From Isurus oxyrinchus (Eukaryota): DNA of 64,000 bases. The first letter of the stretch is position 1, and every line of letters begins with the position of its first letter. The stretch covers positions 100,006,001 through 100,070,000 of the forward strand of contig JANJGN010000012.1 of the NCBI GenBank assembly GCA_026770705.1. Reading direction: 5' to 3'. A program made the translations under genes and the position numbers. Under the pieces are notes generated by a model. The model was not told the origin of the DNA. It worked only from the letters and a program-made list of their open reading frames with translations, and ran no database searches. This document shows, piece after piece, positions 3,406-39,225 of the stretch.

Positions 3406-5009
3406 CATTGTAATAAACGTGCCATACTGTGTAGTTAGGAATTATTTGAATTGTGTATTTTTGACTTGATAGTACAGTAGGTTGTGCCCAATCAGTTGCA
3501 GCACTTCTAGCATCAGACCCTCATGTAACCTGGCACAGATACTTGAAGCTCACTGCAGTAATTGCAGTACAAGCACCTAACACTGACTGTGTGCAATGCT
3601 CAGGAAGGCTTGACATTCCTTACAAATTAAGGGGCTCCCCATCAATACGGTTGGGCGATTGAGCAGCTCCCCCGACACCAAAGGCACATCTCCAATGGTG
3701 ACTTCAAGGGAGTCCATGCAAACAATTAAAAATCTTGCACTTGAATTATTACTGGCTCAGATTTTCCTTGGCTTCTAACAGCCAATTCTTGCAAAGTAGA
3801 GCCAGGACCCTTTCAATAGCTGCTGCCCCACAATAAAGCCATCTTTGACTTCCATGCCATGCCAAACACATCATGCCTTGAATGCACAAAAATATTAAAT
3901 GAGCTGACCACACTTTCTTAGATGAGATTAGTTCAAATGTACTGCAGGTGTACACAGTACCTGAGTTGCAGTCTTTTTGATATAGGTGTCCATTATATCT
4001 TTTAAATGTAGCCAGTTCCATATGGCAAGACACTTCTATTAGTTTACAACTATAGTTGGACTAACTTTAGGAAACAATTTTTGATGATTTCACAAGTTAA
4101 TGGTCCTACCCAATGACCAGAGCAATCGTTCCATGCACAATGGCAAGAACTGTTGAATTGTAAATGTTCTAGAATTTATCTTTATGTGTATAGAGTTTTC
4201 TATTATATGAAGTATATATTTAGATATAAGTCTATTCACCTTACTATTCTGCACTTTTTACTATTCTGCACTTTTAACAGTTTAAAACAATGTGTTTAAA
4301 GATGATTTCTACCAGAGGAGCCTCAAGTTAAGGCCAACACAAATCTGATCCACTCATATTCTCTGTTTTGTACATCTTGAATCTTTATAAAAGCAAGTTA
4401 GTTTAGTTTATTTTCCAAATTAGGTCTAGGTTTTCTGAGCTTTGAATGTTATTTACCAACATGACTTTTCCTTTTAATTTTGGATGGAGGAGTTATAATT
4501 TTTGCAAATCTCATAAAAAGTTACAGATTTTTTGAAACTCTTGTTTAATTAATTATCACTGCCATTTTGAGATCAACAGTCAGAATTGTAGTGAAAATAG
4601 TGGAACTAAAAAGTGCGTAAAATATTATTAATCTGTAGAAAGCCGTGTTTCATTTGACCAGAAAGCTTTTGGCTCTTAGAGTAGTTAAATTCATAATTTT
4701 CTTTCATTGCCATGGAGCTAATCATTGGAGATGACATTTTCAGCCCACTTAATAGCTTAAAGAATTTTGGATCAAAACCTTGGGCTATATAAATAACATT
4801 TTTCTTCTGACAAAACAAATGTTCAGTGTTAACTCTCCTGGATAATTTGCCAGAAAACACTGGGAGTGATTGTCACATTAACATTTTAGTGTTCTACAGG
4901 CAAAAATATTGCTGCTCTGTAAACTTTTATTAATGTATTTTTACACACTGCACTGAGCATCAAGAGTTATACAAGAGAAACTTGCATTTATATAGTGTCT
5001 TTGACATAA

Positions 5010-5180: not shown

Positions 5181-6285
5181 CTGGTAGTCAGTTTTTCCCA
5201 TCACACATCTCTCATCTTCCTTCATTCACTTCAGTCTGCTCCAAAGCACCAGGCATAGCTTGATGTCATGGACTGACAGCAATATATCTGCAGTAGAAAA
5301 GGTGGAGTTGCTAATTCACACAGTATCCACCATGTTAAGATGAAATGATATAAAGTTTGAAGTATCTGTTACAGAGTTCACCATATTTTTGAAAAAAGCT
5401 TTCATTGACAAAAGCCTATTCAATACATTTAAATCTCTTCAGTAATTAAGCCCTTATGAAAAAACACATTTATATCTATATCAAAGACTGCTAATCACTT
5501 TATAACCACTTGGACCTGTCAGTCAAACAGTGAGCATACAAGCCCCCACTATGATAAAGATAGGTTGTGGAAGCAGTCAAGCAATACTAATACAATAATG
5601 ATAACCCTCGGGCTATGTCAACAAACATCTAATGAAGTTTTTAAAATTTTTCACTGAGACACACAGCAAGCTATTTTTTTCCCCAAATTTAAAGAGCAGG
5701 GGATTTAAATGACTCACAGTTCTACGGGCCTTAACAATCATGAAGCACACTCCTGTCTCTTAACCATCCCAAAAGGGTACCTGCACTATCCAAAAGGTTA
5801 CCTTGTCCTCTCCAAAAGGATATCTGATCTCTCCAAAGAACTCCAGTAGGTTTAGACATTTTCCTCAAATTTGTGTTTATAAACCTGGCTGACAAAAGTT
5901 GCTTCTGAGTGAAGGCAATTGCACTTTTAAATGTGATGCTGCCTCCATAAACCACAGATGTGTGAAATACATCCCACTTCCAGTCCTCCCCAGTGAAAAT
6001 GGTGGGTGCCAGATACGGGGTGTTATTTGGGGCCAGATCCAGGGCTTCCATGCCATTTTGGTTAAGGCTCAGATCCCTTCCCTCTCCATGAAAATTCAGG
6101 CCAAGTTGCAAAACATAAACAACGCTTCTTAGCTCTGTAAATTACCACAAGATCAAGAATCAAAAATTATAGCATAAGCTAACTTTGACATCAGTTAATA
6201 TTTTGTAAAGTCGATCATTTAATCTGATTGGTTTTTGATGCATCTGAATTTATTTCAAATTATTAATTTCTATTTTTCACTATAG

Positions 6286-6375
6286 GATGTTTTTCCATAT
6301 GACGGTGGCTCATCGAAACAAAGTAATACATCACAAGGTCATGGCTTGAATCCTTGGGCTAACTGGCGCTATTCG
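6286..6375 (+). CDS. Internal coding exon (phase 0/0, 30 aa DVFPYDGGSSKQSNTSQGHGLNPWANWRYS), repeat exon A of a cadherin cytoplasmic tail
   Basis: Acceptor 'tttttcactatag', donor 'gtaaga', 90 nt open in frame 0. Paralogous to exons at 13027 and 15100. Linkage to the terminal exon is inferred from strand and phase. Confidence 0.75.
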
Positions 6376-6952
6376 GTAAGAACAGACCACTGTATGTTCT
6401 AATGTATGTGGCTTTTATAGAGACACATTAATATACTACACAAAGCCTAGAGATAGCAAAGGATGGGACTTTTATTCTTTGCCTTTCTGCATGTACTTAA
6501 CAGTTGTTTGAACCTGTTCCCTCTAGTTGTAACCTTAAACAAAACATAAATTGTCCCTTTGACAACTGTACAGGATGTAAATAGCCCAGAAATACTACTA
6601 GTATGCTAAATATTATGGTTCTGAGCATACCTTGGGTGCTTGCCTAAAAGAGACAGGAAGATAGATTTGAAGAGTGCCTGGTTTGGAGGCTAGAGGCTGG
6701 GTGTCCACTGGAAAGAATTGTTCTTTATTCCCTTGACTCCATTTGTGTTCTTTATCTTTGGGGGCCAGGTCACAACTAGATCCATAGGTAATCCCCACAA
6801 TTGTTAGTTATCAGAGAAGTACACCTGTTCTGCTGAATCCTGTCAAAGGCATAGGCTACCAGAACTCCTAATGCAAAGAAACCCCATTCCTCCCTGTGCC
6901 AATGACAGAGGCCATTGTTCCAAAAAGGTCCACTTGGAAAATCCAATTCTAT

Positions 6953-7745
6953 GGCCGGAATGTTCTGGCCCTGTTGTCATCAGGTGTCATGGTGGTTGTT
7001 GGGGTGGGGGACACAATATGGTGAGAAGGCCAAAAAATCGGTTTTACGCCATCATGAAACTAGTCTGCGATCTTCTGCTCCACCCATCAATGGCGGGCCG
7101 CATTTTCTGCCACTGTAGGTCAGAAACCTAATTTCAATACTTCAGCATCTCATTATAAGCCCTGCAGACCGAAATCATCTCCCTGACACTGGATCATCCA
7201 GGCATACACTGACGTGTTTCACAACTATACATAAGCAACTTGCACCTGTCGAGCTGCATTTCACTTGAGATTTCAAGGTTTGTTTGCCTACCTTGCTTCG
7301 GCAGCACTCACGGTCATCAGGCTTCACAGGCAACACCACATCACTTTTAGGGAGGCTCCCGGCCAGGTCTATACCTACCAGCCATAGGGTGGAGTGGCTT
7401 TTCAACAGCTGCAGGGCTTGGATTTGCTTGGAGAAGGGGGAAAAATGGCCTCATGCAAGGGAAGAGGCTGCAGGGCGAGGGCTGTACTGGGGAAGGAGGG
7501 TATCCCAGGCTGTGTGTGGGGGTACATGTTGTTTTATCCAAGTGGCCTCAAGATGGTGAGGGCTGGGGAGGCAGTCTCCAGAGGAGATGAGGCCAGATGG
7601 AGATGTGAGGGCGTGTGTGAGAGAGTGAGTAGTGATGACCCTTGAGCTGGCAGTGAGTGAGATGCCAGTGAATGTGTGATGGCCTTGTGAATGTGAGAGT
7701 TCAGAGTGATGAGATGGTTGCCTTACCGTGGTGGCACGGATGAGA
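6953..7745. mobile_element. Internally deleted Harbinger derivative: transposase-side terminus fused to a Myb/SANT intron 1 fragment (- strand)
   Basis: 7085-7170 is the reverse-complement homologue of ~40320-40410. 7600-7745 is the reverse-complement homologue of the Myb exon1/intron1 at ~32700-32840. Confidence 0.65.
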
Positions 7746-8029
7746 AGTAAGAAAGGTTAGTCCAAATAAAAGTTAAAAGAATATACAATTAAGTTCTTTG
7801 CTTGTCCATGAGGCATAGAACAATAGAAAAGTTATGACACAGTAATAGGCCATTCAGCCCACCATGTTGGAACTTGCCGGAAAAGAAAAAAGAAAAAACA
7901 GCTGCCCATTCTAATCCCACTTGCAGCACTTTAGATGCCATTTTAATGAGTTGAGGGTTTCTGCCTCCACTACCAAACGAGACAGCAAATTCCAAACACC
8001 CACCACTCTCTGCATGAAGAAGTTTTTCC

Positions 8030-10378
8030 TCAAGTCCCCTCTAATCCTTCTACCAATGACCTTAAATCTGTGCCCTCAGTAATTGACCTCTCCGCTAAGG
8101 GAAACAGGGCATCCCTGTCTACTCTATCTAGGCCCCTCATAATCTTGTACACCTCAATCAGGTCACCCCGAGCCTCCTCGGTTCCAAGGAAAACAACGCC
8201 CAGCCTATCCAATTTTTTCTCATAGCTGCAATTTTCAAGCCCTGGCAACATTCTTGTAAATCTCCTCTGTACCGTCTCCAGATCAATTATGCCCTTCCTG
8301 TAATGTGGCAACCAGAATTGCACACAAAATTCCAGCTGAGGTCTAACCAGTGTTTTATACAATTTTATTATTGCATCCCTGCTTTTGCATTCTTTACCTC
8401 ATCCAATAAATAAAAACATTCCATATGCTTTCTTTACCAACTTAACCACCTGTCCTGCCATCTGCAGGGACCTGTGGACATGTGGTCTCTCAGTTCCTCT
8501 ATCCCTCCCAATATCCTTACATTTGTTATGTATTTCCTATCTCTGCTTGCAGTCCCCAAATGTATTATCACACATTTCTCTGGAGTGAATTCCATCTGCC
8601 ATTTTCTACCCATTTAACCAATCCATTAACATATTTATGGAGACAACAGCTATCCTTTTTACTATCAACTACATGTCTAATTTTTGGCTCTTCTGCAAAT
8701 TTCCCAATCATGCCACCCACATTTAATTCCAAATCATTAATATATACAACGAACAGCAAGGGACCCAATACTGAGCCCTGTGGAACACCACTGGAAACCA
8801 CTTTCCATTCGCAAAAACATCCATCAATCATTACCCTTTATTTCCTGTTGCTGAGCCAATTTTGGATCCAACTCGCTACATTGCCCTGTATCTCATGGGC
8901 TTTTACTTTTCTGATCAGTCTGCCATGTGCGACCTTGTCAAATGCCTTACTAAAATTCATGCAGACAATATCCACTGCACTACCCTCATCAATCCTCCTC
9001 ATTACTTCCTTAAATGATTTGATTAAATTAGTAAGGCACGATCTTCCCCTAACAACACCATGCTGAATACCCCTGATGAATCTGTTCCTTTCTAAGTGAC
9101 AGTTTATCCTGTCTTTGAGAATTGATTTTAATAATTTTCCCACCACCAAAATCAGACTGACCTGCTATAATTTTCTGGCCTATCCCTTGCACACTTTTTA
9201 AATAATGGTATAACATCCGCCGACCTCTAATCCTCTGGGAGCTCACCTGTATCTAGTGAGGATTGTATCTAGGAGCATCCACTATTTCCTCCCTGGCTTC
9301 CTTTAACAGCCTGTGATACAATCCATCTGGTCCTAGTGATTTGTTCACCTTCAAGGATGTCAGTCCCTCTAATTCAACCTCTCTCTCTATGCTTATTGCA
9401 TCTAATATTTCACACTCCTTTTTAACCAGAATATCTACATCATCCCTCTCCTTCATGAAGACAGAGACAAAGTGCTCATTGGGACCCTGCCCACATCTTC
9501 AGCACCAACGCACAAGTTACCATGTACACCTCTGATAGGCCCTACCCTTTCCTTAGTCCTTCTCTTGCTCTTAATTTACTGGTCAAACATCTTTGGGTTT
9601 TCTTTGATTTTACCTGCTAATATATTTTCATATCCTATCTTTGCTTTCTTAATTACCTTTTTCAGTTCACTCCTCTAGGCTTTCTACAGTATTAAATTTT
9701 TTGTGACTGTTGTAAGCTTTTGTTTTCTGCTTTAAATACTTTGCATGCTTCCAGATAACTATGGGGCTCTAGATTTGGCATACCGCCCTTTTTCTTTGTG
9801 GGGACATGTCTACACTGTGCCTGTAGAATCTTTCTTTTCAATGCCTCCCACTGGTCTGTCATGATTTCCCTTCAAGGAGCTGCGACCAGTCCACTTTTGC
9901 TAGATCACCTCTTTCCCCAATTTAGAACTTTCACTCCTGTTCTACCTTTATCCTTTTTCATAATTATGCTAAATCTAGCTGTATTATGGTCACTATCTTC
10001 AAAATGGTCACCCACTGCTTATTCATCTATTTGCTTAGTTTCATTTCCTAAGACTAAATCTAGAATTGCACACTCTCTCATTGGGCTTGTTACATGCTGG
10101 CTTAAAAAAGTTCTTTTGAATGCAGTTCAAGAATTTTGTGCCCTCTGTGCTATTACACTATTTGTATCCCAGTTGATATTAATGTAGCTGACGTTCCCAA
10201 TTATTATTGCCCTATTGTTTTTGCACTCAGGAATTTGTCTACATATTTGCTCTTCTATCTTGCTTTCACTATTTGGGGGCCTATAGTACACTCCCAGTAG
10301 TGTGGCTGCCTTTTTATTTCTGAGCTCAACCCATGTGGCCTCATTTGATGCTGCATTTAGTATATCATCCCTCGTCAC
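8030..10378 (-). pseudogene. CR1 ORF2 (endonuclease-reverse transcriptase), frameshifted
   Basis: ORF-track pieces 10127-10378, 9253-9456, 8838-9149, 8568-8831 and 8030-8362 carry successive EN/RT motifs. Confidence 0.9.
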
Positions 10379-10809
10379 AGCTATAGTTGATTCTTTAACA
10401 AATAATGCCTACACCCCCACCTTTTTTAGCCCCTTCTCTATCCTGCCTGAAAACTCCCTATACATAGGGAGGCTGAGCTGCCTTTTTGCTCCTCTTTAAG
10501 CCAAGTTTCCGCTATAGCAATGATATCATGCTGCCATTTTCTATCTGTGCCCTCAGCTTATCAGCTTTGTTTGCTATTCTCCTTGCATTTAAATAAATAA
10601 CATTTTAACATAGCCAAATTCCTGTGTTGTAAACCTTTCCACCTTTGCTTCTTTCGTCTTTGAGTCACTCAATAATTTTCTGTCTCCTGTTCCTGGTCTG
10701 AACTTGTCCTATCTGAATCTGCCCTCAGGTTCTCATGCCCTTCCAATCTAATTTAAACCCTCCCCAACAACACTAGCAAATCTCCCTGCAAGGACATTCA
10801 TCCAGGTTC

Positions 10810-11660
10810 TAGTCAGGTGTAGATCATCCAGTTTGTATAGATCCCACCTTCCCCAGAACCAGCCCAATGTTGCACAAAATCTGAAGTCCCTCCTCTGCGC
10901 CATATGTCCAGCCATGCATTCATCTGGTGTATTCTCTTACTCCCATACTCACTAGGACCTGGCCTTGGAAATAATCTGGAGATTACTGCCTTTGAGGTCC
11001 CTCTTTCCGAACTCCAAGAATCAGTCTGTAGGACCTCAGCTCTTTTTCTCCTTATATTGCTGGTACCAATTTGAACCACAATCTCTGGCTGTGCACACTC
11101 ATCCTACAGAATGCGCTGAAGCCGCTCGATGATACCCATGACCATTGTACCAGGGAGGAAACATACCACCCTGGAATCATGTCTGTGATCACAAAAGCAC
11201 CTATCTGTTCCCCTAACTATAGAAACTCCTACCACTATTAATCTCCTACCTTTTCTCCTCCATCCCTGCACAGCTAAGCCACCCATGGTGTTCTCGTCAT
11301 GACTCTCGATGCTCTCTCTAGAGGAACGCTTTCCCCTATCTCAGTACCTGTTAGAAAATGGGATGTCCTCAGGGGTCTGCTGCACTACCTGCCTTGTCTT
11401 TCTTGTCTGCCTGATGGCCACCTAGTCCTTCTCTGCCTGCAGGATGACTACTTTCTGAAATGTGCTATCCACGTAGTTCTCATCCTTGCAGATGCTCCTC
11501 AGTGACACCAGCTGCTCCTCGAGTTCCAAGATATGGCACTCAAGGTTTTTCATTTGGTGTTACTTTCTGCACATGTAGTTTTCCAGGGCATGGGTAGCAT
11601 CCTGGAGTCCCCACAGGGTACAGAATGTGCACTCAACAAGTATGAGCAGCCCTGTCATGC
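10810..11660 (-). pseudogene. CR1 ORF1 with SGNH/GDSL esterase-like domain, disrupted
   Basis: 'LIVVGVSIVRGTDR' (GDS block), 'VCFLPG', 'VQIGTSNI' (GxND block) and 'MNAWL' in ORFs 11104-11286 and 10813-11079. Confidence 0.75.
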
Positions 11661-11929
11661 CTCAAATTATTTATTCATTGCATCGAAATTGGAATTTAAG
11701 TAAACACAATAAAATGTTAATTAACTCTCATTCTATCCTCACATCAGTTATTTTTTTAAACCCCTGACTCTTGCTGGAACTCTCACTCTGTCCTCGATGC
11801 TTTCTTTTCACAGCCTGATTCTCACTGGAACTCTTGCTCTATCCTCACGCCAGTTTTATTTTTAAAATCCCCAACTCTCGCTGCAACACTTTTTTTCAAA
11901 TCCCCAACAGCCATTTTTTCCTTCTTGTA

Positions 11930-12715
11930 TTTACCACTTTAAATAGATTACCAGTAGATTGTTGAACATTGTGACCATTTAAAGTTAGCTGATTTCCTTT
12001 AAAATCCTGGAGTTGAATTGAAGTTCAGATAACATGCACTTTGCTGGAGACAACCTTAGCTTCAGAGAAAGAGAGAAAGAGAGAGAGAGAGAGATTCCTT
12101 ACTACTTTCTTCAACAGTTTTCCAGATGACTTTGATGACTTCTTTCTGTTTTTGGCTTAGCAAAATCAGTTCTTAAACCTCCTATCTGTATATTCCAAGA
12201 GAGGAATTTGATTACCATGTCTTGTTGAAGAAGTAATCACATTTTAGATCTTTCACCTAAGAAACTTTAGACATGTTTCAAGATAGTAGAAGCCAACAGG
12301 AGATGGGGCTATTTTGTCCTCCACAGGGGGTTTTGTGTCAGTTGGTTGTATCTGGCTGGTTAACAGTTATCATTGTCTTGATAGAATTACAGTTGATTAA
12401 AGACTGTCACTTTGCATTTTTAATGCCTTCATTTCAAGACCCTCTTTTTGAAGTGGACGTTGATACCTGCAGGTGTGAAATTCCATGCAATATGTCAGGG
12501 CAAGTCTGCAGTGCAATCAATATAGGAACTTTTCAGAAAAGTGGTCAATTTAAAATACCAGACATCAGGTGACTGGTGATAGCCATCTTTGGTCAGTATC
12601 TTTTCTTGTATTTTTTAAAAGAACAGGCCCTCTTTAAACAGTTCAAGGTGCTTTTGGTTAGCTGGTGAAGTTATAGGTAGATCTCACTCAGTCACAATTT
12701 TTCATTGTCGTAACA
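11930..12715 (-). mobile_element. Possible solo LTR-like repeat containing an (AG)n microsatellite (~12064-12093)
   Basis: Right end 'tcgtaaca' reads TGTTACGA on the minus strand, a typical LTR start. No coding evidence. Confidence 0.3.
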
Positions 12716-13026
12716 ATAGAGAAGTTTGAGTGAGGGGCAAGATCCTGCAAGTCAAGATTCAATCAAAGGCAGGTCAGTGTAATCATCCACAAGATGGGTA
12801 TGGATATCAGGGCCTTATTCACAAGGCAACAGACATACTGAAGGTAATGAGAAGGAGGGGGATAATTGCAGAGAGAGCTAGCAAATTAAAAAAATATAAA
12901 TTCGTAGTGAAGAACTAAACTACACATTCACACTTTAGAAAAGAGCATGAGTTTATTTAGCCTGAATACTTTCAGTTTTTGGGACAATTAAATTAATTTA
13001 GATTTCATGATCTATTTTCATTATAG

Positions 13027-13110
13027 GAGACTTCATCGTATGTAGGTGGCCCATCCAGATATCCTTCACACAGTTACGATTCAAAAGCTTGGGACTCCAA
13101 GGGGTATTCG
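13027..13110 (+). CDS. Internal coding exon (phase 0/0, 28 aa ETSSYVGGPSRYPSHSYDSKAWDSKGYS), repeat exon B
   Basis: Acceptor 'ttttcattatag', donor 'gtaagaacag' (identical to exon A donor), 84 nt open in frame 0. Confidence 0.75.
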
Positions 13111-13432
13111 GTAAGAACAGAACTCTGTATGTCACTAACCAAGGCATTCTTCTCACTCAGAATCCCTAATGTAGGAAAGAAAACTCCTTAGATATGAAAA
13201 AAAACGTACAAAATGTGGAACATTACTTTTTTGGTGTGCTTGGCATTTTATAGCTCTTTTTTCAGAATCTGGTGAACTGTTCATTAAGTTTATCATGTAT
13301 TACATTCCTTAGAATTGAATATTGAATAAAAGGGAATAACTTCATTACACTTTAACAATATTATAGTTCAAACTCTGATAGCAAACTCTATCTTAATTGC
13401 TCTGGCAGTGTCAGTCTGTCTCAAACTGATCA

Positions 13433-14030
13433 GGGAGAATTTTCCCCCCCTTTGTGGGGGTTGTGCGGGGACATGCGTGAACCCAATTGGGTCCGCACCG
13501 CCATTTTACATCAACAGGCCAGTTAAGGCTTGTCCAGTGTGATGCACGCCTGGAAACGCTGAGTGTTTCCTGTGCGGGCAGGGGGGGATTCCCTGAGTCG
13601 GGGCCTGTGCTCTTTCGCGCAGAAATTTCCATGAGGGGAGATTAGTTTAAGTTTTAAAAAGCTAAATATAGAAAATAAAAATTTGAAGACATGTCCCCAC
13701 ATGTGACAGTGTCATATGAGCTGGGACATGTCAATGAATTTTTATTTAATTTATAAACGCTTCATGAAACCTCATCCTGCCCGTGAATGAGATTCCATGA
13801 AAAATGCGAAGGCCGCCTGGGCTCTTCGCCTGCCCGCCAACCTTAAGGTTGGACGGCCAGCTCAGTTTATTGCTTTAATTAGGTTTTTTAATGGCCTTAA
13901 TAAGCCTTTGACAGTTTGGCGGGCGCACAGCCGACTCAGCTGCGCGCCCACCTAATTGAAAATCTAAATGACACGTGGTAACATCGAGATGTATACCTGA
14001 CGTCATTCTGGTTGTTAAGGGATTGGGTGC
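13433..14030 (-). mobile_element. Harbinger-type MITE, same family as 880-1577, opposite orientation
   Basis: Begins 'gggagaattttcccc'. The same three hairpins occur in reverse order (gacatgtccc..., atgaaacctcatcc..., ccaaccttaaggttgg). Confidence 0.75.
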
Positions 14031-14834
14031 AATTTTCAGTTTGCATATAAGTTAGGAGAGTGTTGGGCAGAGTCCGCCCAAAAGAATCAGCGTGGCACAC
14101 AATTGAATTTTGTCTGTGGCCTTCCTTATGTGATTGGCCAGTTGCCAGCAGGAATTGTACTACATTGGTAGCTCGCCAATCTCGAAGCATGAGATCTATT
14201 GGTGTAGTAACTTATGAAAGGCTTACATTAGCTCATTAGAGGAGAGGTGTATTTAGTATCAGGAATACAGTGAAACACAACTAGTGGAGCAGGCTACCTG
14301 TGTACAGAACCTACAACATCAACTACATTGTTTTGGAAAGCCTACCAGCATCTTCAAAAGCTTCATTTTGCTTTTTCTGACAGGAGCTGAGGATACCTTT
14401 AATCATCATTGGAAATGGGCACTTCCTGAATTCTACTATTTGGTTGGGCAAGAGCACAACCGAGTGATAGTTTGTGCTCCTGCTCAGAGACAAAAATGGC
14501 ATCATATATTAACTGCATAACTTGACCCTTATTTACATATATTTAGGAGGACCCGTTTCCAACAAGAGCTCCAAAAAAAGGAACAGACATAATGCAACAG
14601 TCAATATTTTTGTTTTATCCTGGCCCAGTTACTACCCTATTTTAAGCATAAATGGGCCACATGTATTGATATTACGACAACAACTACACTTAGAAGTATG
14701 TACTTAATTGGCTGTGAAGCACAAAAGGAGGTCATTAAGAAAATTAACAAGTGCAAGATTTATCTTCTTTCCATCTCTTCTTGACTTTGCCAATTGAAAC
14801 AGTTATAATCACATCAAAAAGGAAGAAGTTAAAT

Positions 14835-14935
14835 ATGCACTTATATAATGCCTTTCATGAGTACAAGATGTCACTAGGTGCTTCAATGCCAATGAAGTAC
14901 TTTTGAAGGGTAGTCACTATTATTATGTAGGAATC
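14835..14935 (-). mobile_element. Deu-type SINE fragment
   Basis: 'gccaatgaagtacttttgaag.gtagtcact..t.atgtagga' is homologous to 41835-41940. Family assignment is from recall. Confidence 0.5.
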
Positions 14936-15099
14936 AGGAAACAAAGATATTAGCAGAAAATTGTACTGAGGGAATAAACTACCCTTAAGGGTATATCATT
15001 ATTTGTAAATTCTCCAGAAATAGTCCTTGGCTTAATTTGATTGCTTTCAGTTTTTTGTGCAAATTCATTTAGGGTTATTTATTTCTCTTTTCACTACAG

Positions 15100-15189
15100 G
15101 AAAGTTTGCCATATGGAGGTAACATATTGAGACCAATCAACAAATTACAAGGACATGGCACAAAAACTTGGGCTCACAGGCAGTATTTG
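15100..15189 (+). CDS. Internal coding exon (phase 0/0, 30 aa ESLPYGGNILRPINKLQGHGTKTWAHRQYL), repeat exon C
   Basis: Acceptor 'cttttcactacag', donor 'gtaagaa', 90 nt open in frame 0. Shares PY-G, QGHG, WA and Y with exon A. Confidence 0.75.
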
Positions 15190-16654
15190 GTAAGAATAAA
15201 CTGAAATTAAATATATTAAAATTAAATGTCAATTACCAGAGCGATATTTTCCTCATAATAAGTGGGTAGAAGTTCTGACTGTACACATCCTCCCAATATA
15301 AGAGCTACAATAGGTATTAAGCTTTTCAGCTGTTCAAACTAGCACAAACATTATCATGCTTAAAAAGACATAGAGAGTACAGCCGAATTTGCCAGTGACA
15401 ACGTAAGTAGATAACTACATTTAGAAATGCTGTCTGATTCACTGTAAGCTGGGAGATTCCTGAGAACTGCTCCCACTCTACTGTTGCAACTTTTGTCATA
15501 ATTTGAATAGAAACCCTGCCTAAATGTGCGAGCACTTTTATTGATGTTATGGCAACAGAGCTCTGAGGAAGTTCTTTGTCTAAGTTAATATATATTAGTC
15601 CCAAAATGGCAAATCAAATTACAAAGTGAAGGGTATATTATCAAATAAGACAAATCAAGAAAAGATCTTTGTGCCTTCAAAACTCATGTCACAGCTGTAA
15701 TTTGTAGTTTGTAAGTATATTTCATAAAATAAATCTATGGATAAATGACAAATACTTTATAAAGCATTAACATAGGAATTACTTTTTCTGAACTCACCAT
15801 ATTGTAAAAAGAGTAGAAAAGATTCAAAAGGATACCAGTAATACTTATAGATTATTGTATGATGAACAGAAACTAAGGGAATTAAATTTATGGGGTTGTT
15901 TTGTTTAGGAGATTAGAAATTTTGTGGAAATTTTATCTAGAAATCTTTCACATATGTACAGATATGATTTAAATCTTTGGTGGAATATCCACTAACAGGA
16001 AAAAACTTCATTTTCCTCTCATGAGTTTTTAAATGTGCCTGCTTCATCTTCAGGCACATTACAAAACTATTCAGCTCATTGGAAAACCGATTTTCATTAT
16101 ATCTGACTGGCACTTTACTTACCTTAATCTGTTATATACATTAGTCTGCATCATACTTAGACTCTGGCAAAAATTAGGAGTTAGGGGCCAATTTCTGGGT
16201 GCAACCTGTTGCACACAATCCACTCTGGAAGTGCCAAATCAGCATTTAAATGATCACATGTGAGTACAGAATTTGAGCTTTGTTGTTTAAAGAGACATGC
16301 TGTCAAAGCTTTTCATCTTGAGTGCAAGACAAAAAGCTTCGATAGTATGTCGTTTTCTTCAGCAATCAGCATTCAATTACTTCCCAAGCTCTCAGGAGGC
16401 CATACCTAAAACAAACCTAGGGCCCCTTGAATATGCTAACCAGAGACCTGTTTTAGAACTCTAAGAGTAAATTCAGAATAAGCTGGCTGGAGCATGCACT
16501 GTGGATGCTTCACTCAGGTTTTCCAGGAACAGAATTTTCCCTTTGTCGTGCGGGGGCGGGCCTCGCACATTCACATATAAAATGACGCGTGGTGACGTCG
16601 GGCAAGCCTTCCGTCATCACCACGCACCATTGCGATATTTCCCTTAGCCTGGAA

Positions 16655-22125: not shown

Positions 22126-22308
22126 GAACTGGACATAAATGATCTAGAAGTGAACCATGAGCCACATGTATATAGCTATGAAGAAGATGAGCTACGTGAG
22201 CCATCTCTTGACGCCATCAGCATAGTTGAAAGTAGCAATGCCTCTGACTACTTGAACAACTTGGGGTCAATGTTTGTAACACTTGCAAGAATCTGTCAGG
22301 AGAAGTAA
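22126..22308 (+). CDS. cdh26: Terminal coding exon of a cadherin (Cadherin_C catenin-binding tail), most like cadherin-26: ELDINDLEVNHEPHVYSYEEDELREPSLDAISIVESSNASDYLNNLGSMFVTLARICQEK*
   Basis: Acceptor 'ttactttttttag', 60 codons plus TAA. Motifs PHVYSYE, SLDAISI and YLNNLGSMFVTLARIC fit the cadherin C-terminus. It lacks the desmocollin GSVGCCS motif, so CDH26-like is preferred; orthology is unconfirmed. Confidence 0.8.
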   Translation, partial: ELDINDLEVNHEPHVYSYEEDELREPSLDAISIVESSNASDYLNNLGSMFVTLARICQEK

Positions 22309-22517
22309 CCACTGTAAGCTCAAAAGCACCAGAAAGAAACACTAAACACTAATGACAGCCATTTACAAATTATCCACATTATCTTTGATTACATTTTGAT
22401 TGAAATATTTTTTAAAGTGAATACATCTTTTTTCCCCAAAATTTGTTATTTGGTGTGACTAAATTATAAAATAATTATGCTGTAACCAAATTAATAATTG
22501 GGATAAAAAAAACTTTA

Positions 22518-22596
22518 AATAAAAAAAGGTCAATGTTGCATGTTAAACTGACAAAAAACCATCCTAATTTTTATTCTCTTCTGATTTCTAAATAAA
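22518..22596 (+). terminator. Candidate polyadenylation signals of the cadherin gene
   Basis: AATAAA at 22518-22523 and 22591-22596, about 210-290 nt after the stop, in AT-rich sequence. Confidence 0.45.
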
Positions 22597-24399
22597 TAAC
22601 TTGTGCTACATCCTGTACTTAAGTGGAATAGTTAAAAGATGCAGGGGTTGAATACCTGCCAGAGTTTTCTTCATTGTCTAGTGTAATTTTGGTGGAAGAT
22701 CCAAGAAAACTTTGGAAAAATTGTGTAAATAACCTTTCACTCTAGAGTTTTGTGAATGTCTTATAGCTTCAGCAGAACAATGCCAAGAATCACCATGAAA
22801 ACTGAACTCCACAATATTCTTTTTAATATATCCAAATGAAGACCCAGTGTTGTGCATTTAGTTAAGAATATGCAAATGACAAATGTTCCATTTTTTTTAA
22901 AGCCCCCGACTGAGAAGGACGATTGAAGTATTTTATACTATTATTTGGTTCAGGCTGTACTGTCTCTATTCTTATTTTATTTGAATACTATCACCTAACT
23001 TGTTATAAATATTTTAATATAACAGGCAAATGTTAGGAAAGATATAAAAAAATGCAGAGGTTTTGCAATAGAAAGCATTACCTGCAAAATCTTCTTTTAT
23101 ATAAAGTAACATTCAATTTCAAAAATTACACTTTTTTTGTTCAGGAAATCTCCAGCATTGAAACAGGGCTAGATTTGCCTTTGCCACTCCACCTAAAGCA
23201 AATGGGGTGATGGTGGAAAACAGAGTCAAATTGGTAGTGAGACCAACCACTATGTTCCTGCCCTGACTGCAATTCCTTACCTCCAGACCCTGCTAGGACA
23301 ATCGCAAGTCACCCCTTTCCTACACATTGGATATAGTTTACAGCAGGGGAGTTGGGCCTTGTAAGCCACTCCACTTCCCTGCACTTCACCCCTACTATTG
23401 CTAACCCTGGGGACTGTGAGGAGATGGGAGCTTTTACTTCCTGGAGTGGCACAGGGCCTATAACTGCTCTTTTTGAAGGGAAAGGATATAATAATAGGCG
23501 CCCATCCTTTCGATTTTGCCTTGGCTTCTTACCTTTCTGCACATCGGTGCAGTTAAAGCCCCTAGGTTTCCAAATTTCTCATGGGTCATCAGGTCTCTTT
23601 TGCTACTTTTAAATAGTCCAACAAACTCACCACCAGCTTTTTCTTTTCCATTAGCAGTGGGGTCCCCCTTAGTGAGGGAGTTCACACTAGGAGGCAAACC
23701 TAGGTGCTTGATGACTTGGAGTTATGAAAATAGATTGGGATCACAGTAGGGTCAAACGTTGTGTGGAAGTCCTGCTCCACCAGTATCCCATCAACAAGAG
23801 AAAAATCCAGCTCAGAATTGCTTTGATGAGATTGAAGCAAGATATAAAATGGTAGATTCCACTCTTGGAATTTGAAAATTTTCTGCATTAGTTCTTAGTG
23901 AAGAAGCATTGGATAAGCTGGGATTGATCTATGTATATTCTACTAAAATAGATAGTTAAAAGTAATGTAAAAGATACAATATGAATAATTACCTACTTGA
24001 AGAACAATTCTTTTGGAAAATAGTTACATTTTGAAAGTTGTTATTTTGGCTTTGGTTTTTAAGTTCCTAACCTTGAACATGTTTCCTGACTTAATACTTG
24101 TTTACAAATTATACATTTTATTTACATAAATATGGTGAAATATAAAATGTCCTGTATGTTCATTAATGTCCGGAATGCTGCTGGCTAGTTACTAATGGCA
24201 TAGAGAAACAGTGGTACATCATTTTTTAACTGACTTGGCTTCATCCTCACCAATTTACCTGTCATAGATGTAACTATCCATTAGAGTATTGGTAGGATTG
24301 ATCGCCGCACAGTCCTAATGGACACAAAGTCCTTTTTTTCACACTGAGGACACCCTTCTATTGTGTTGTGTGGCACAGCGACTGTGTGAAATGGAATAG

Positions 24400-37938: not shown

Positions 37939-38657
37939 GGGTTCCTAGAGCTATACTCACCCCCAAAAAATGTAAGTGCAATAGGAAAGCAACGGGGGAG
38001 TTGGTGGCGGCATTGAATCCCCCCCACCCCGCCCCAGGAAAGAATGGGGGAGAGAGAGAGAGGAGGGCACAGTCGGAAGGACAGTGAGGCACAAGATGGA
38101 CAAGTGCCACAGGTGAACGGTGTGTTGTGGGGGGATGGGTGGAGGAGAAGGAGATGATGTCTTGATTCTTGGGTTTTTTCAGACAGAAGGAGGAGAGTAT
38201 CTTCGCCCAAGGCAACTGGAACTGCTGGCATACAGTCTCTCTAACTCTTCACCGGGCAGCCTCAGCAAACCTGCACTTGGGGTGGGGTGAACACACAAAG
38301 GTCTTTCCCAAATATGCCCACACCTCTCAGATGTTCCTCTTCCTTTCCCTCCCCCTGTAAAAACACAAGTCCAATACAGATCTCCCCTCTTGAGTACACA
38401 CCTTTCGTAGCACCACCGGAAATCTTCTCCCTCCTGGTCCACTCCTTTCCTTCTTCTCTCACTGAAGTAAGCCATGAGCCTCAGGTGTTGAGCTGCTGGG
38501 AACCCCCCCCCACCTGCCCCTTGCAGATGGGCAGTCAGCAGCAGCTCAGTCCCAGCCTTCTAATAAAGTTGCAGGCTCCTGCAGAGCTCCAAACACTAGC
38601 AGCCATTACAATAGCAACAGGGTGTGGCAGCAGAATGGAATACCTCCTCCTCCTCCT

Positions 38658-38912
38658 NNNNNNNNNNNNNNNNNNNNNNNNNNNNNNNNNNNNNNNNNNN
38701 NNNNNNNNNNNNNNNNNNNNNNNNNNNNNNNNNNNNNNNNNNNNNNNNNNNNNNNNNNNNNNNNNNNNNNNNNNNNNNNNNNNNNNNNNNNNNNNNNNNN
38801 NNNNNNNNNNNNNNNNNNNNNNNNNNNNNNNNNNNNNNNNNNNNNNNNNNNNNNNNNNNNNNNNNNNNNNNNNNNNNNNNNNNNNNNNNNNNNNNNNNNN
38901 NNNNNNNNNNNN
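38658..38912. other. Assembly gap (255 N)
   Basis: Run of N between the Tx1 5' UTR, which ends in (cct)n, and the Harbinger transposase. Confidence 1.
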
Positions 38913-39225
38913 CCACACCAAAACCCGGGATATCCAGGCATATGCAATCACCTCTGCATCCTGGCTGTTCTGGTCCTGGGCAACAAGCACAAATCTCTGT
39001 ACCCTTTTTGTGGGTGGAGGCTTGTGTTATCCCACGGAGTTCATCTGTGGAGCTCTGGAAGGAGCCACCGGAATAGAAATTGAGCACCACGGTCACTTTC
39101 ACAGCCACTGGCACTGGGTGCCCTCCGTGTCCCCTTGGCACCAGGTCCTGCTGTAAGTGGCAGATGCAAGTGACCAGTTCCCTAGACATGCACAGTCATC
39201 GGTGACACTGGTTCTTGGTTATCTA
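38913..39225 (-). pseudogene. Harbinger transposase N-terminal part (element A)
   Basis: MSRELVTCICHLQQDLVPRGHGGHPVPVAVKVTVVLNFYSGGSFQ, closely similar to 51864-52388. Confidence 0.85.

What the first reader, a model, noticed from the sequence alone, without database searches (positions are those of the whole stretch)
6230..15210. Cadherin cytoplasmic tail built from duplicated symmetric micro-exons
Seen: three 84-90 nt phase-0 exons share the pattern [DE]xx[PS]YxG...(QGHG)...W....Y[SL]. Their acceptors (tttca[ct]ta[ct]ag), donors (gtaagaa[ct]a) and nearby intron sequence are also homologous (e.g. gtaagaacagaccactgtatgt vs gtaagaacagaactctgtatgt). All frames are open, and the 6-nt length difference preserves frame while surrounding TEs are decayed, which suggests selection. 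Established: classical cadherin tails lack such repeats, whereas desmogleins have ~29-aa repeat-unit domains located after the catenin-binding segment. Inference: this is an independently evolved Tyr/Trp-containing repeat upstream of the catenin-binding site. It could be constitutive, cassette or mutually exclusive, tuning tail length or phospho-Tyr sites. More copies may lie upstream of the window.
Basis: partly seen in the sequence, partly recalled or inferred. Interest (0 to 1): 0.8.

Follow-up and report, generated by a model that had tools for sequence, protein, structure and literature searches.

The report
Copied tail exons in shark cadherin-26
Three short look-alike exons in a shark's cadherin-26 cell-adhesion gene are real and are spliced together into its message; they lengthen a predicted floppy spacer in the protein's inner tail and likely arose by old exon copying, a known process, in a gene whose public models already include them.

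Summary
Exons 6286-6375, 13027-13110 and 15100-15189 are homologous, phase 0-0, and single contigs from three studies splice all three to the last exon at the predicted junctions; no skipping joint was listed. The gene is not a type I classical cadherin but cadherin-26 (CDH26): intact, 797 of 823 residues identical to white shark XP_041059718, whose model already holds these exons. The unit occurs across sharks and rays in 0-6 copies; a decayed fourth copy sits at 4646-4786. They are neither micro-exons, nor mutually exclusive, nor desmoglein-like repeats. Unrelated repeats recur in the same tail region of frog, marsupial, gar and herring CDH26. Best reading: birth and death of a frame-neutral exon in a tolerant spacer. 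I found no paper describing it; the mechanism is known (PMC3632108). The scan noted the same kind of tail growth in another ray gene (e1-8168540), not in CDH26.

The parts
4646..4786 (+). E0: decayed fourth copy of the unit with its upstream intron flank (pseudo-exon); acceptor AG and donor GT lost, 1-nt loss, stop downstream; skipped in transcripts
   Evidence: nhmmer with a profile of E1-E3: E 2.4e-5, 21.1 bits, against best scores of 2.2-12.0 in 5 locally shuffled copies of the 264 kb; alignment; X4 and X5 contigs join the upstream exon directly to 6286
6286..6375 (+). E1: CDH26 tail exon, 90 nt, phase 0-0, unit class 1
   Evidence: 29 of 29 residues match white shark model; spliced in X1, X4, X5
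13027..13110 (+). E2: CDH26 tail exon, 84 nt, phase 0-0, unit class 2
15100..15189 (+). E3: CDH26 tail exon, 90 nt, phase 0-0, unit class 3
22126..22308 (+). Last coding exon of CDH26: 60 residues, catenin-binding-like terminal segment
   Evidence: 97% identical to white shark CDH26; Pfam PF01049 at 20.2 bits, below the cut-off of 24; 32% over 41 aa to a type I last exon, 33% over 48 aa to a desmoglein-like one
22309..22700 (+). 3' untranslated region (at least this far; end not determined)
   Evidence: contiguous with the last exon in X4 and X5 contigs up to the end of the stretch laid

Best explanation
These are three spliced, in-frame coding exons of shark cadherin-26 that descend from one exon, likely copied in tandem before sharks and rays split, and they form a predicted disordered spacer between the membrane-proximal motif and the terminal catenin-binding-like segment. 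Mechanism: the slot between those two parts is flanked by phase-0 introns in CDH26 and in type I cadherins alike (shown), so any exon of 3n bases with its splice flanks can be copied or lost without shifting the last exon out of frame (follows from the phases). Copies are gained and lost lineage by lineage (shown as 0-6 units in gene models, recent near-identical pairs, and one dead copy here). Selection likely keeps frame and splice sites and only loosely the sequence (inferred). All three are included together in the main transcript (shown); the product likely acts as a long flexible tether rather than as a set of tuned signalling motifs (inferred).
For: Whole gene: 16 exons from -70 kb to +22 kb, all AG/GT, no stop, 797 of 823 residues identical to XP_041059718 (names). 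Splicing E1-E2-E3-last in single contigs of X1 (depth 5.1), X4 (11.8), X5 (899), three studies; none of the 13 listed joints skips a unit. All tail exons of this gene are phase 0-0; the four of the upstream paralogue read the same from their borders; three type I genes of this genome have one 0-0 middle exon of 141-165 nt in the same slot. 52 units from 17 species group mostly by position, with classes 1 and 2 holding both sharks and rays. Identity to white shark: units 30-64% in horn, bamboo, zebra and smooth-hound sharks against 71-78% for the ectodomain and 58-72% for the last exon. Paralogous dN/dS 0.67, 0.82, 1.42. pLDDT below 50 over residues 644-847. Dead copy E0. Tail repeats of other sequence in 3 of 26 bony-fish and 5 of 18 tetrapod CDH26 and 14 of 70 further CDH26; 1 of 16 among type I/II cadherins and desmocollins, a desmocollin.
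Against: W24 is invariant in class 2 (8 of 8) and class 3 (10 of 10) and present in 36 of 52 units; a few other columns are invariant per class, so some sequence constraint exists. 14 of 20 measured orthologues keep a spacing of 141-152 residues, more order than free drift suggests, though relatives share ancestry. dN/dS rests on 28-30 codons per pair. Low pLDDT also results from a shallow alignment (20 rows) and covers the terminal segment too. Contigs drop rare forms, so minor skipping is not excluded; a smooth-hound model skips three of four units. Tree support on 30-residue units is modest (class 2: 53-75). Unit borders in other species come from protein models, not DNA.
Confidence: 0.72

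Rival explanations
1. Length-tuned spacer: selection holds the tail spacer near three units (about 145 residues) and different lineages reached that length with different copies.
For: Four different unit make-ups give three units and 141-152 residues: 1,2,3 in most galeomorph sharks (with E0 dead here); two copies of one unit plus 3 in Scyliorhinus canicula; 0,1,2 in sawfish and stingrays; 1,2,2' in skates.
Against: 6 of 20 measured orthologues fall outside (52, 59, 88, 116, 179, 186), some perhaps incomplete models; across other vertebrates the spacing runs from 40 to 188; most three-unit species inherited the state; the closest sister of S. canicula has two units.
Confidence: 0.15
2. Motif array: each unit carries an aromatic motif (Trp, Tyr/His) that binds a partner, is phosphorylated or promotes clustering, so copy number sets avidity.
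For: W24 in 36 of 52 units, R11 in 34 of 52, His or Tyr at position 19 in 39 of 52; units are 11% aromatic and 38% G/S/N/Q; several unrelated repeats in frogs and marsupials also hold Tyr or Trp.
Confidence: 0.09
3. Regulated cassette set: the units are alternatively included or mutually exclusive and tune the tail per tissue.
For: Symmetric exons allow it; RefSeq models skip units in smooth-hound (X2 lacks three of four) and skip tail exons of the neighbouring paralogue in white and basking shark.
Against: All three exons in one contig in 3 of 3 runs, no skip joint among 13 listed, one contig unbroken at depth 899; both white shark models of this gene keep all three; catshark isoforms do not differ in the tail. 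Mutual exclusion is ruled out as the main form.
Confidence: 0.04

Closest known systems
Cadherin-26 (CDH26; RefSeq 'cadherin-like protein 26', e.g. white shark XP_041059718.1)
   Same: This is that gene: five cadherin domains, one membrane helix, multi-exon tail; the RefSeq model already contains all three exons. Human CDH26 is called atypical, with 18 exons in variant A and a six-exon variant B resembling the cytoplasmic domain (PMC5809386, passages read).
   Different: The 28-30-residue unit family is confined to the shark-and-ray paralogue here called A; no match above 5.7 bits in other CDH26 proteins, including two elephant shark paralogues. Catenin binding is reported for human CDH26 in one study (via review PMC8703627, passages) and not found in another (PMC5809386); untested for the shark protein.
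Disordered regions built from consecutive symmetric exons by tandem duplication (Schad, Kalmar, Tompa 2013, PMC3632108; author names recalled; passages read)
   Same: Consecutive phase 0-0 exons, similar to each other, coding a predicted disordered region. The paper reports similarity among consecutive symmetric exons in 7.8% versus 2.6% for random ones.
   Different: That study is on human genes and does not mention cadherins (0 occurrences); here the turnover can be followed across a clade and a dead copy is visible.
Type I classical cadherin tail (CDH1/CDH2-like genes of this genome)
   Same: Same three-part layout; the juxtamembrane exon ends at the same place and phase; the middle slot is phase 0-0.
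   Different: One conserved middle exon and a spacing of 77-84 residues (5 of 8 measured), against four exons and about 150 residues here; no similarity of the units to the middle exon.
Desmoglein repeat unit domains
   Same: Repeats of roughly 25-30 residues in a cadherin tail.
   Different: In this genome they lie after the catenin-binding-like segment inside one open frame of 331-360 residues; the unit profile gives no positive score there and at most 1.9 bits on 12 named desmogleins.

Membership tests
CDH26 | Sequence grouping with proteins named cadherin-like protein 26 | tested here: met
   797 of 823 identical to XP_041059718; shark-and-ray clade A has support 1.0 and lies apart from CDH1/CDH2 in an ectodomain tree of 42 proteins
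CDH26 | Five cadherin domains, one membrane helix, cytoplasmic tail, intact frame | tested here: met
CDH26 | Position next to CDH4 (recalled from the human locus) | tested here: inconclusive
   A type I cadherin of the CDH2/CDH4 kind ends 2.76 Mb downstream on the same strand; that it is CDH4 was not tested
CDH26 | Binding of catenins or integrins | not testable with these tools
   literature divided
Type I classical cadherin | Tail from three exons with one conserved middle exon | tested here: not met
   four middle exons here against one in three type I genes
Type I classical cadherin | Conserved juxtamembrane and catenin-binding segments | tested here: not met
   no BLASTP alignment of the juxtamembrane exons; last exon 32% over 41 aa; PF01049 below cut-off
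Desmoglein repeat unit domain | Repeats after the catenin-binding-like segment, within one long last exon | tested here: not met
   units lie before it, one exon each
Desmoglein repeat unit domain | Sequence similarity to the repeat | tested here: not met
   unit profile at most 1.9 bits on 12 named desmogleins, none positive on two desmoglein-like loci of this genome
Micro-exons | Length at most 30 or 51 nt | tested here: not met
   84-90 nt; limits from abstracts in a search listing (PMC8042270; 10.64898/2026.05.13.725022)
Mutually exclusive exon cluster | One copy per transcript | tested here: not met
   all three in one contig in 3 of 3 runs
Tandemly duplicated symmetric exons in disordered regions | Consecutive exons of one symmetric phase | tested here: met
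Tandemly duplicated symmetric exons in disordered regions | Homology between the exons, including intron flanks | tested here: met
Tandemly duplicated symmetric exons in disordered regions | Disordered product | tested here: inconclusive
   predicted only: pLDDT block means 22-29 over the spacer, no secondary structure
Dispersed repeat family | Copies elsewhere in the genome | tested here: not met
   DNA and protein searches of G000 with E3 return only E3; these missed E1 too, so only close copies are excluded

The most novel reading that the evidence does not exclude
The CDH26 tail is a recurrent exon birth-and-death hot spot across jawed vertebrates in which selection acts on spacer length, not sequence: sharks and rays reached three units by at least four different routes, and frogs, marsupials, gar and herrings grew unrelated repeats in the same slot. 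CDH26 would then be a natural experiment on how far apart a cadherin's two cytoplasmic binding segments need to be.
Probability: 0.2. Interest if true: 0.55.

Novelty: new member of a known kind. Interest (0 to 1): 0.3.

Why it matters
CDH26 is a poorly understood epithelial cadherin tied to allergic inflammation and airway polarity in people (PMC5809386, PMC8703627) and proposed in salinity adaptation (PMC11447269, where a primate stop codon removes the whole tail). This locus shows why its tail is so unlike other cadherins: a frame-neutral slot that keeps gaining and losing exons. It is a clean, datable case of exon birth and death, with a dead copy next to live ones. It does not show a new mechanism, and the exons are already in public gene models.

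Tried and rejected
More intact copies upstream: none in 200 kb. Dispersed repeat or retrocopy: no close copy elsewhere in G000 (low sensitivity). Pseudogene: frame intact, transcripts spliced. Upstream exon A as another unit: no hit in the DNA or protein profile. Class of E0: unresolved; exon-only it is closest to E3 (0 of 1000 shuffles; 17 and 41 of 1000 for E1 and E2), tree support 57. Dating with elephant shark: two paralogues found, neither in clade A, so the origin is dated only to before the shark-ray split. Profile search of 1.84 billion representatives was swamped by giant cadherins; no unit hit above 0.5 bits in 149 new proteins. ESM Atlas: no usable feature hit, structure hits TM at most 0.37. 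The look-up of sequencing runs listed no run on record as RNA; the runs used are guessed RNA, and their GT-AG joins are the evidence. First laying at 88% likeness was swamped by repeats; X2 and X3 showed only last-exon or UTR pieces there. Orthologous dN/dS could not be computed (no orthologous DNA). Papers not held: Caldwell 2017 and a review id recalled from memory. Literature searches listed no paper on repeats or exon duplication in the CDH26 tail; I saw listings and abstract starts only, subscription papers on cadherin evolution are not held, and supplements were not read, so prior description is not excluded. No complex was predicted.
Full report
Observation. The quoted acceptor and donor patterns occur three times each in the window. 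Homology is far above chance with flanks (scores 89-137 against shuffle maxima of 40-45, 500 shuffles per pair) and holds for exons alone (0, 0 and 3 of 1000 shuffles).

The gene. The exon at 22126-22308 finds three proteins, all named cadherin-like protein 26, the best from white shark at 97%. That model already contains E1, E2 and E3. Mapping it on the window plus 200 kb of upstream DNA gives 16 exons with AG/GT borders, no stop, and 797 of 823 residues identical; a first exon maps at about -79 kb. A tandem paralogue ends 120 kb upstream. An ectodomain tree of 42 proteins places this gene in a shark-and-ray clade (A, support 1.0), beside two other chondrichthyan CDH26 clades, and apart from CDH1 and CDH2. 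The organism is a shark close to the white shark.

Transcripts. No run is on record as RNA. Of five runs laid in two calls, the informative laying (three runs from three studies, 97% likeness) shows one contig per run that joins E1, E2, E3 and the last exon at the predicted places: X1 683 nt, depth 5.1, two differing letters; X4 1211 nt, depth 11.8; X5 3876 nt, depth 899. None of the 13 listed joints skips a unit. In X4 and X5 the letters before 6286 match the end of the upstream exon A. Contigs drop rare forms, so this shows joint inclusion as the main form, not the absence of skipping. Automatic models show skipping in smooth-hound (one isoform lacks three of four units) and in tail exons of the paralogue; both white shark models of this gene keep all three.

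A fourth, dead copy. A DNA profile of E1-E3 with flanks finds one more place in 264 kb: 4646-4786, same strand, in the intron before E1, E 2.4e-5, 21.1 bits; five locally shuffled copies gave at most 12.0. It is also the only further hit of a protein profile in six frames, though weak (-0.3 bits). It has lost the acceptor AG and the donor and carries a 1-nt loss. Which class it came from is unresolved.

History. I cut 52 units from 17 species, using protein models and borders inferred from this gene. They group mostly by position; classes 1 and 2 hold sharks and rays, so the first copying predates their split (inferred; support modest). Counts differ: three in most, six in sevengill shark (a two-unit block repeated), four in smooth-hound, two near-identical copies in small-spotted catshark and in a skate, one in an electric ray, none in the sawshark model. 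Some low counts may be incomplete models; the whale shark model has one unit and also lacks exon A. The unit profile scores above 10 bits only in clade A proteins among 156 and 90 further proteins; this is circular for the members but not for the misses, whose best scores are 4.4 and 5.7.

Why this slot. Three type I cadherin genes of this genome have a single phase 0-0 middle exon of 141-165 nt after a juxtamembrane exon that ends at the same position as in CDH26. In CDH26-A the slot holds four 0-0 exons, in the paralogue four others. Any 3n exon there can be copied or lost without shifting the last exon. Type I spacing is 77-84 residues (5 of 8 measured); CDH26 spacing runs from 40 to 188 (84 of 121 measured). 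Internal repeats of unrelated sequence were flagged in 1 of 7 other chondrichthyan paralogues, 3 of 26 bony fish and 5 of 18 tetrapod CDH26 tails and in 14 of 70 further CDH26 tails (13 non-CDH26, fused or clade A rows left out beforehand, 7 without a measurable tail), against 1 of 16 type I/II cadherins and desmocollins. That those repeats are exon copies is inferred from their sizes, not tested.

Constraint. Against white shark, the units are 30-64% identical in horn, bamboo, zebra and smooth-hound sharks, the ectodomain 71-78% and the last exon 58-72%. Paralogous dN/dS is 0.67, 0.82 and 1.42 on 28-30 codons. The model shows no structure over the spacer. Against pure drift: 14 of 20 measured orthologues keep 141-152 residues, reached with four different unit make-ups. 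This is the basis of the length-selection rival.

Comparison. Desmoglein-like repeats of this genome lie after the terminal segment in one long frame and do not match. Micro-exons are defined as at most 30 or 51 nt (abstracts). On human CDH26 I read passages of PMC5809386, PMC8703627 and PMC11447269; they differ on catenin binding and none of the passages mentions tail repeats. Seven searches listed no paper on this feature; coverage of subscription literature is missing. A sequence look-up in this scan's notes found nothing.

Verdict. Real, expressed, already modelled, and explained by a known process; the new details are the unit family's turnover, the dead copy and the repeated expansion of the same slot in other vertebrates. 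Interest 0.3.

Noticed in passing
L013-L020 (G000:C12 about 99,806,001-99,886,005; window -200 kb to -120 kb): Tandem paralogue CDH26-B. Its tail has four small phase-0 exons spread over about 79 kb, unrelated to the units; white and basking shark models skip two of them.
   Followed up: partly
L001, window -981 to -877: Exon A is 105 nt here and lacks five codons present in the white shark model; X4 and X5 contigs show the longer form's letters. Another frame-keeping change in the spacer.
   Followed up: partly
window 22306-22317: The stop codon comes three codons earlier than in most other sharks; the two following codons and a second stop are still in place. Shared with the white shark model, not with basking shark.
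   Followed up: partly
L021-L026 (G000:C12 102,751,971-102,792,091): Type I cadherin of the CDH2/CDH4 kind 2.76 Mb downstream, same strand; likely CDH4 by recalled synteny, not tested.
   Followed up: partly
L035, L036 (G000:C5 13.07 and 13.16 Mb): Two desmoglein-like last exons with repeat units in open frames of 360 and 331 residues.
   Followed up: partly
proteins P0045, P0059, P0051, P0149, P0060, P0062, P0069, P0330, P0392, P0315, P0378, P0383: Independent tail repeats of 14-35 residues in CDH26 of marsupials, gar, herrings, frogs, coelacanth and the shark/ray paralogue B; exon structure not checked.
   Followed up: partly
window 22700-64000: No Pfam family in 10 of 11 long open frames tested across the window; one fragment at 54717-55397 matches reverse transcriptase below the cut-off. 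Two frames near the N stretch (38245-39156) were not tested.
   Followed up: partly
protein P0017: The sawshark clade A model lacks all units, and the sevengill shark model appears to lack exon A while holding six units; real loss or model error not checked.
   Followed up: no
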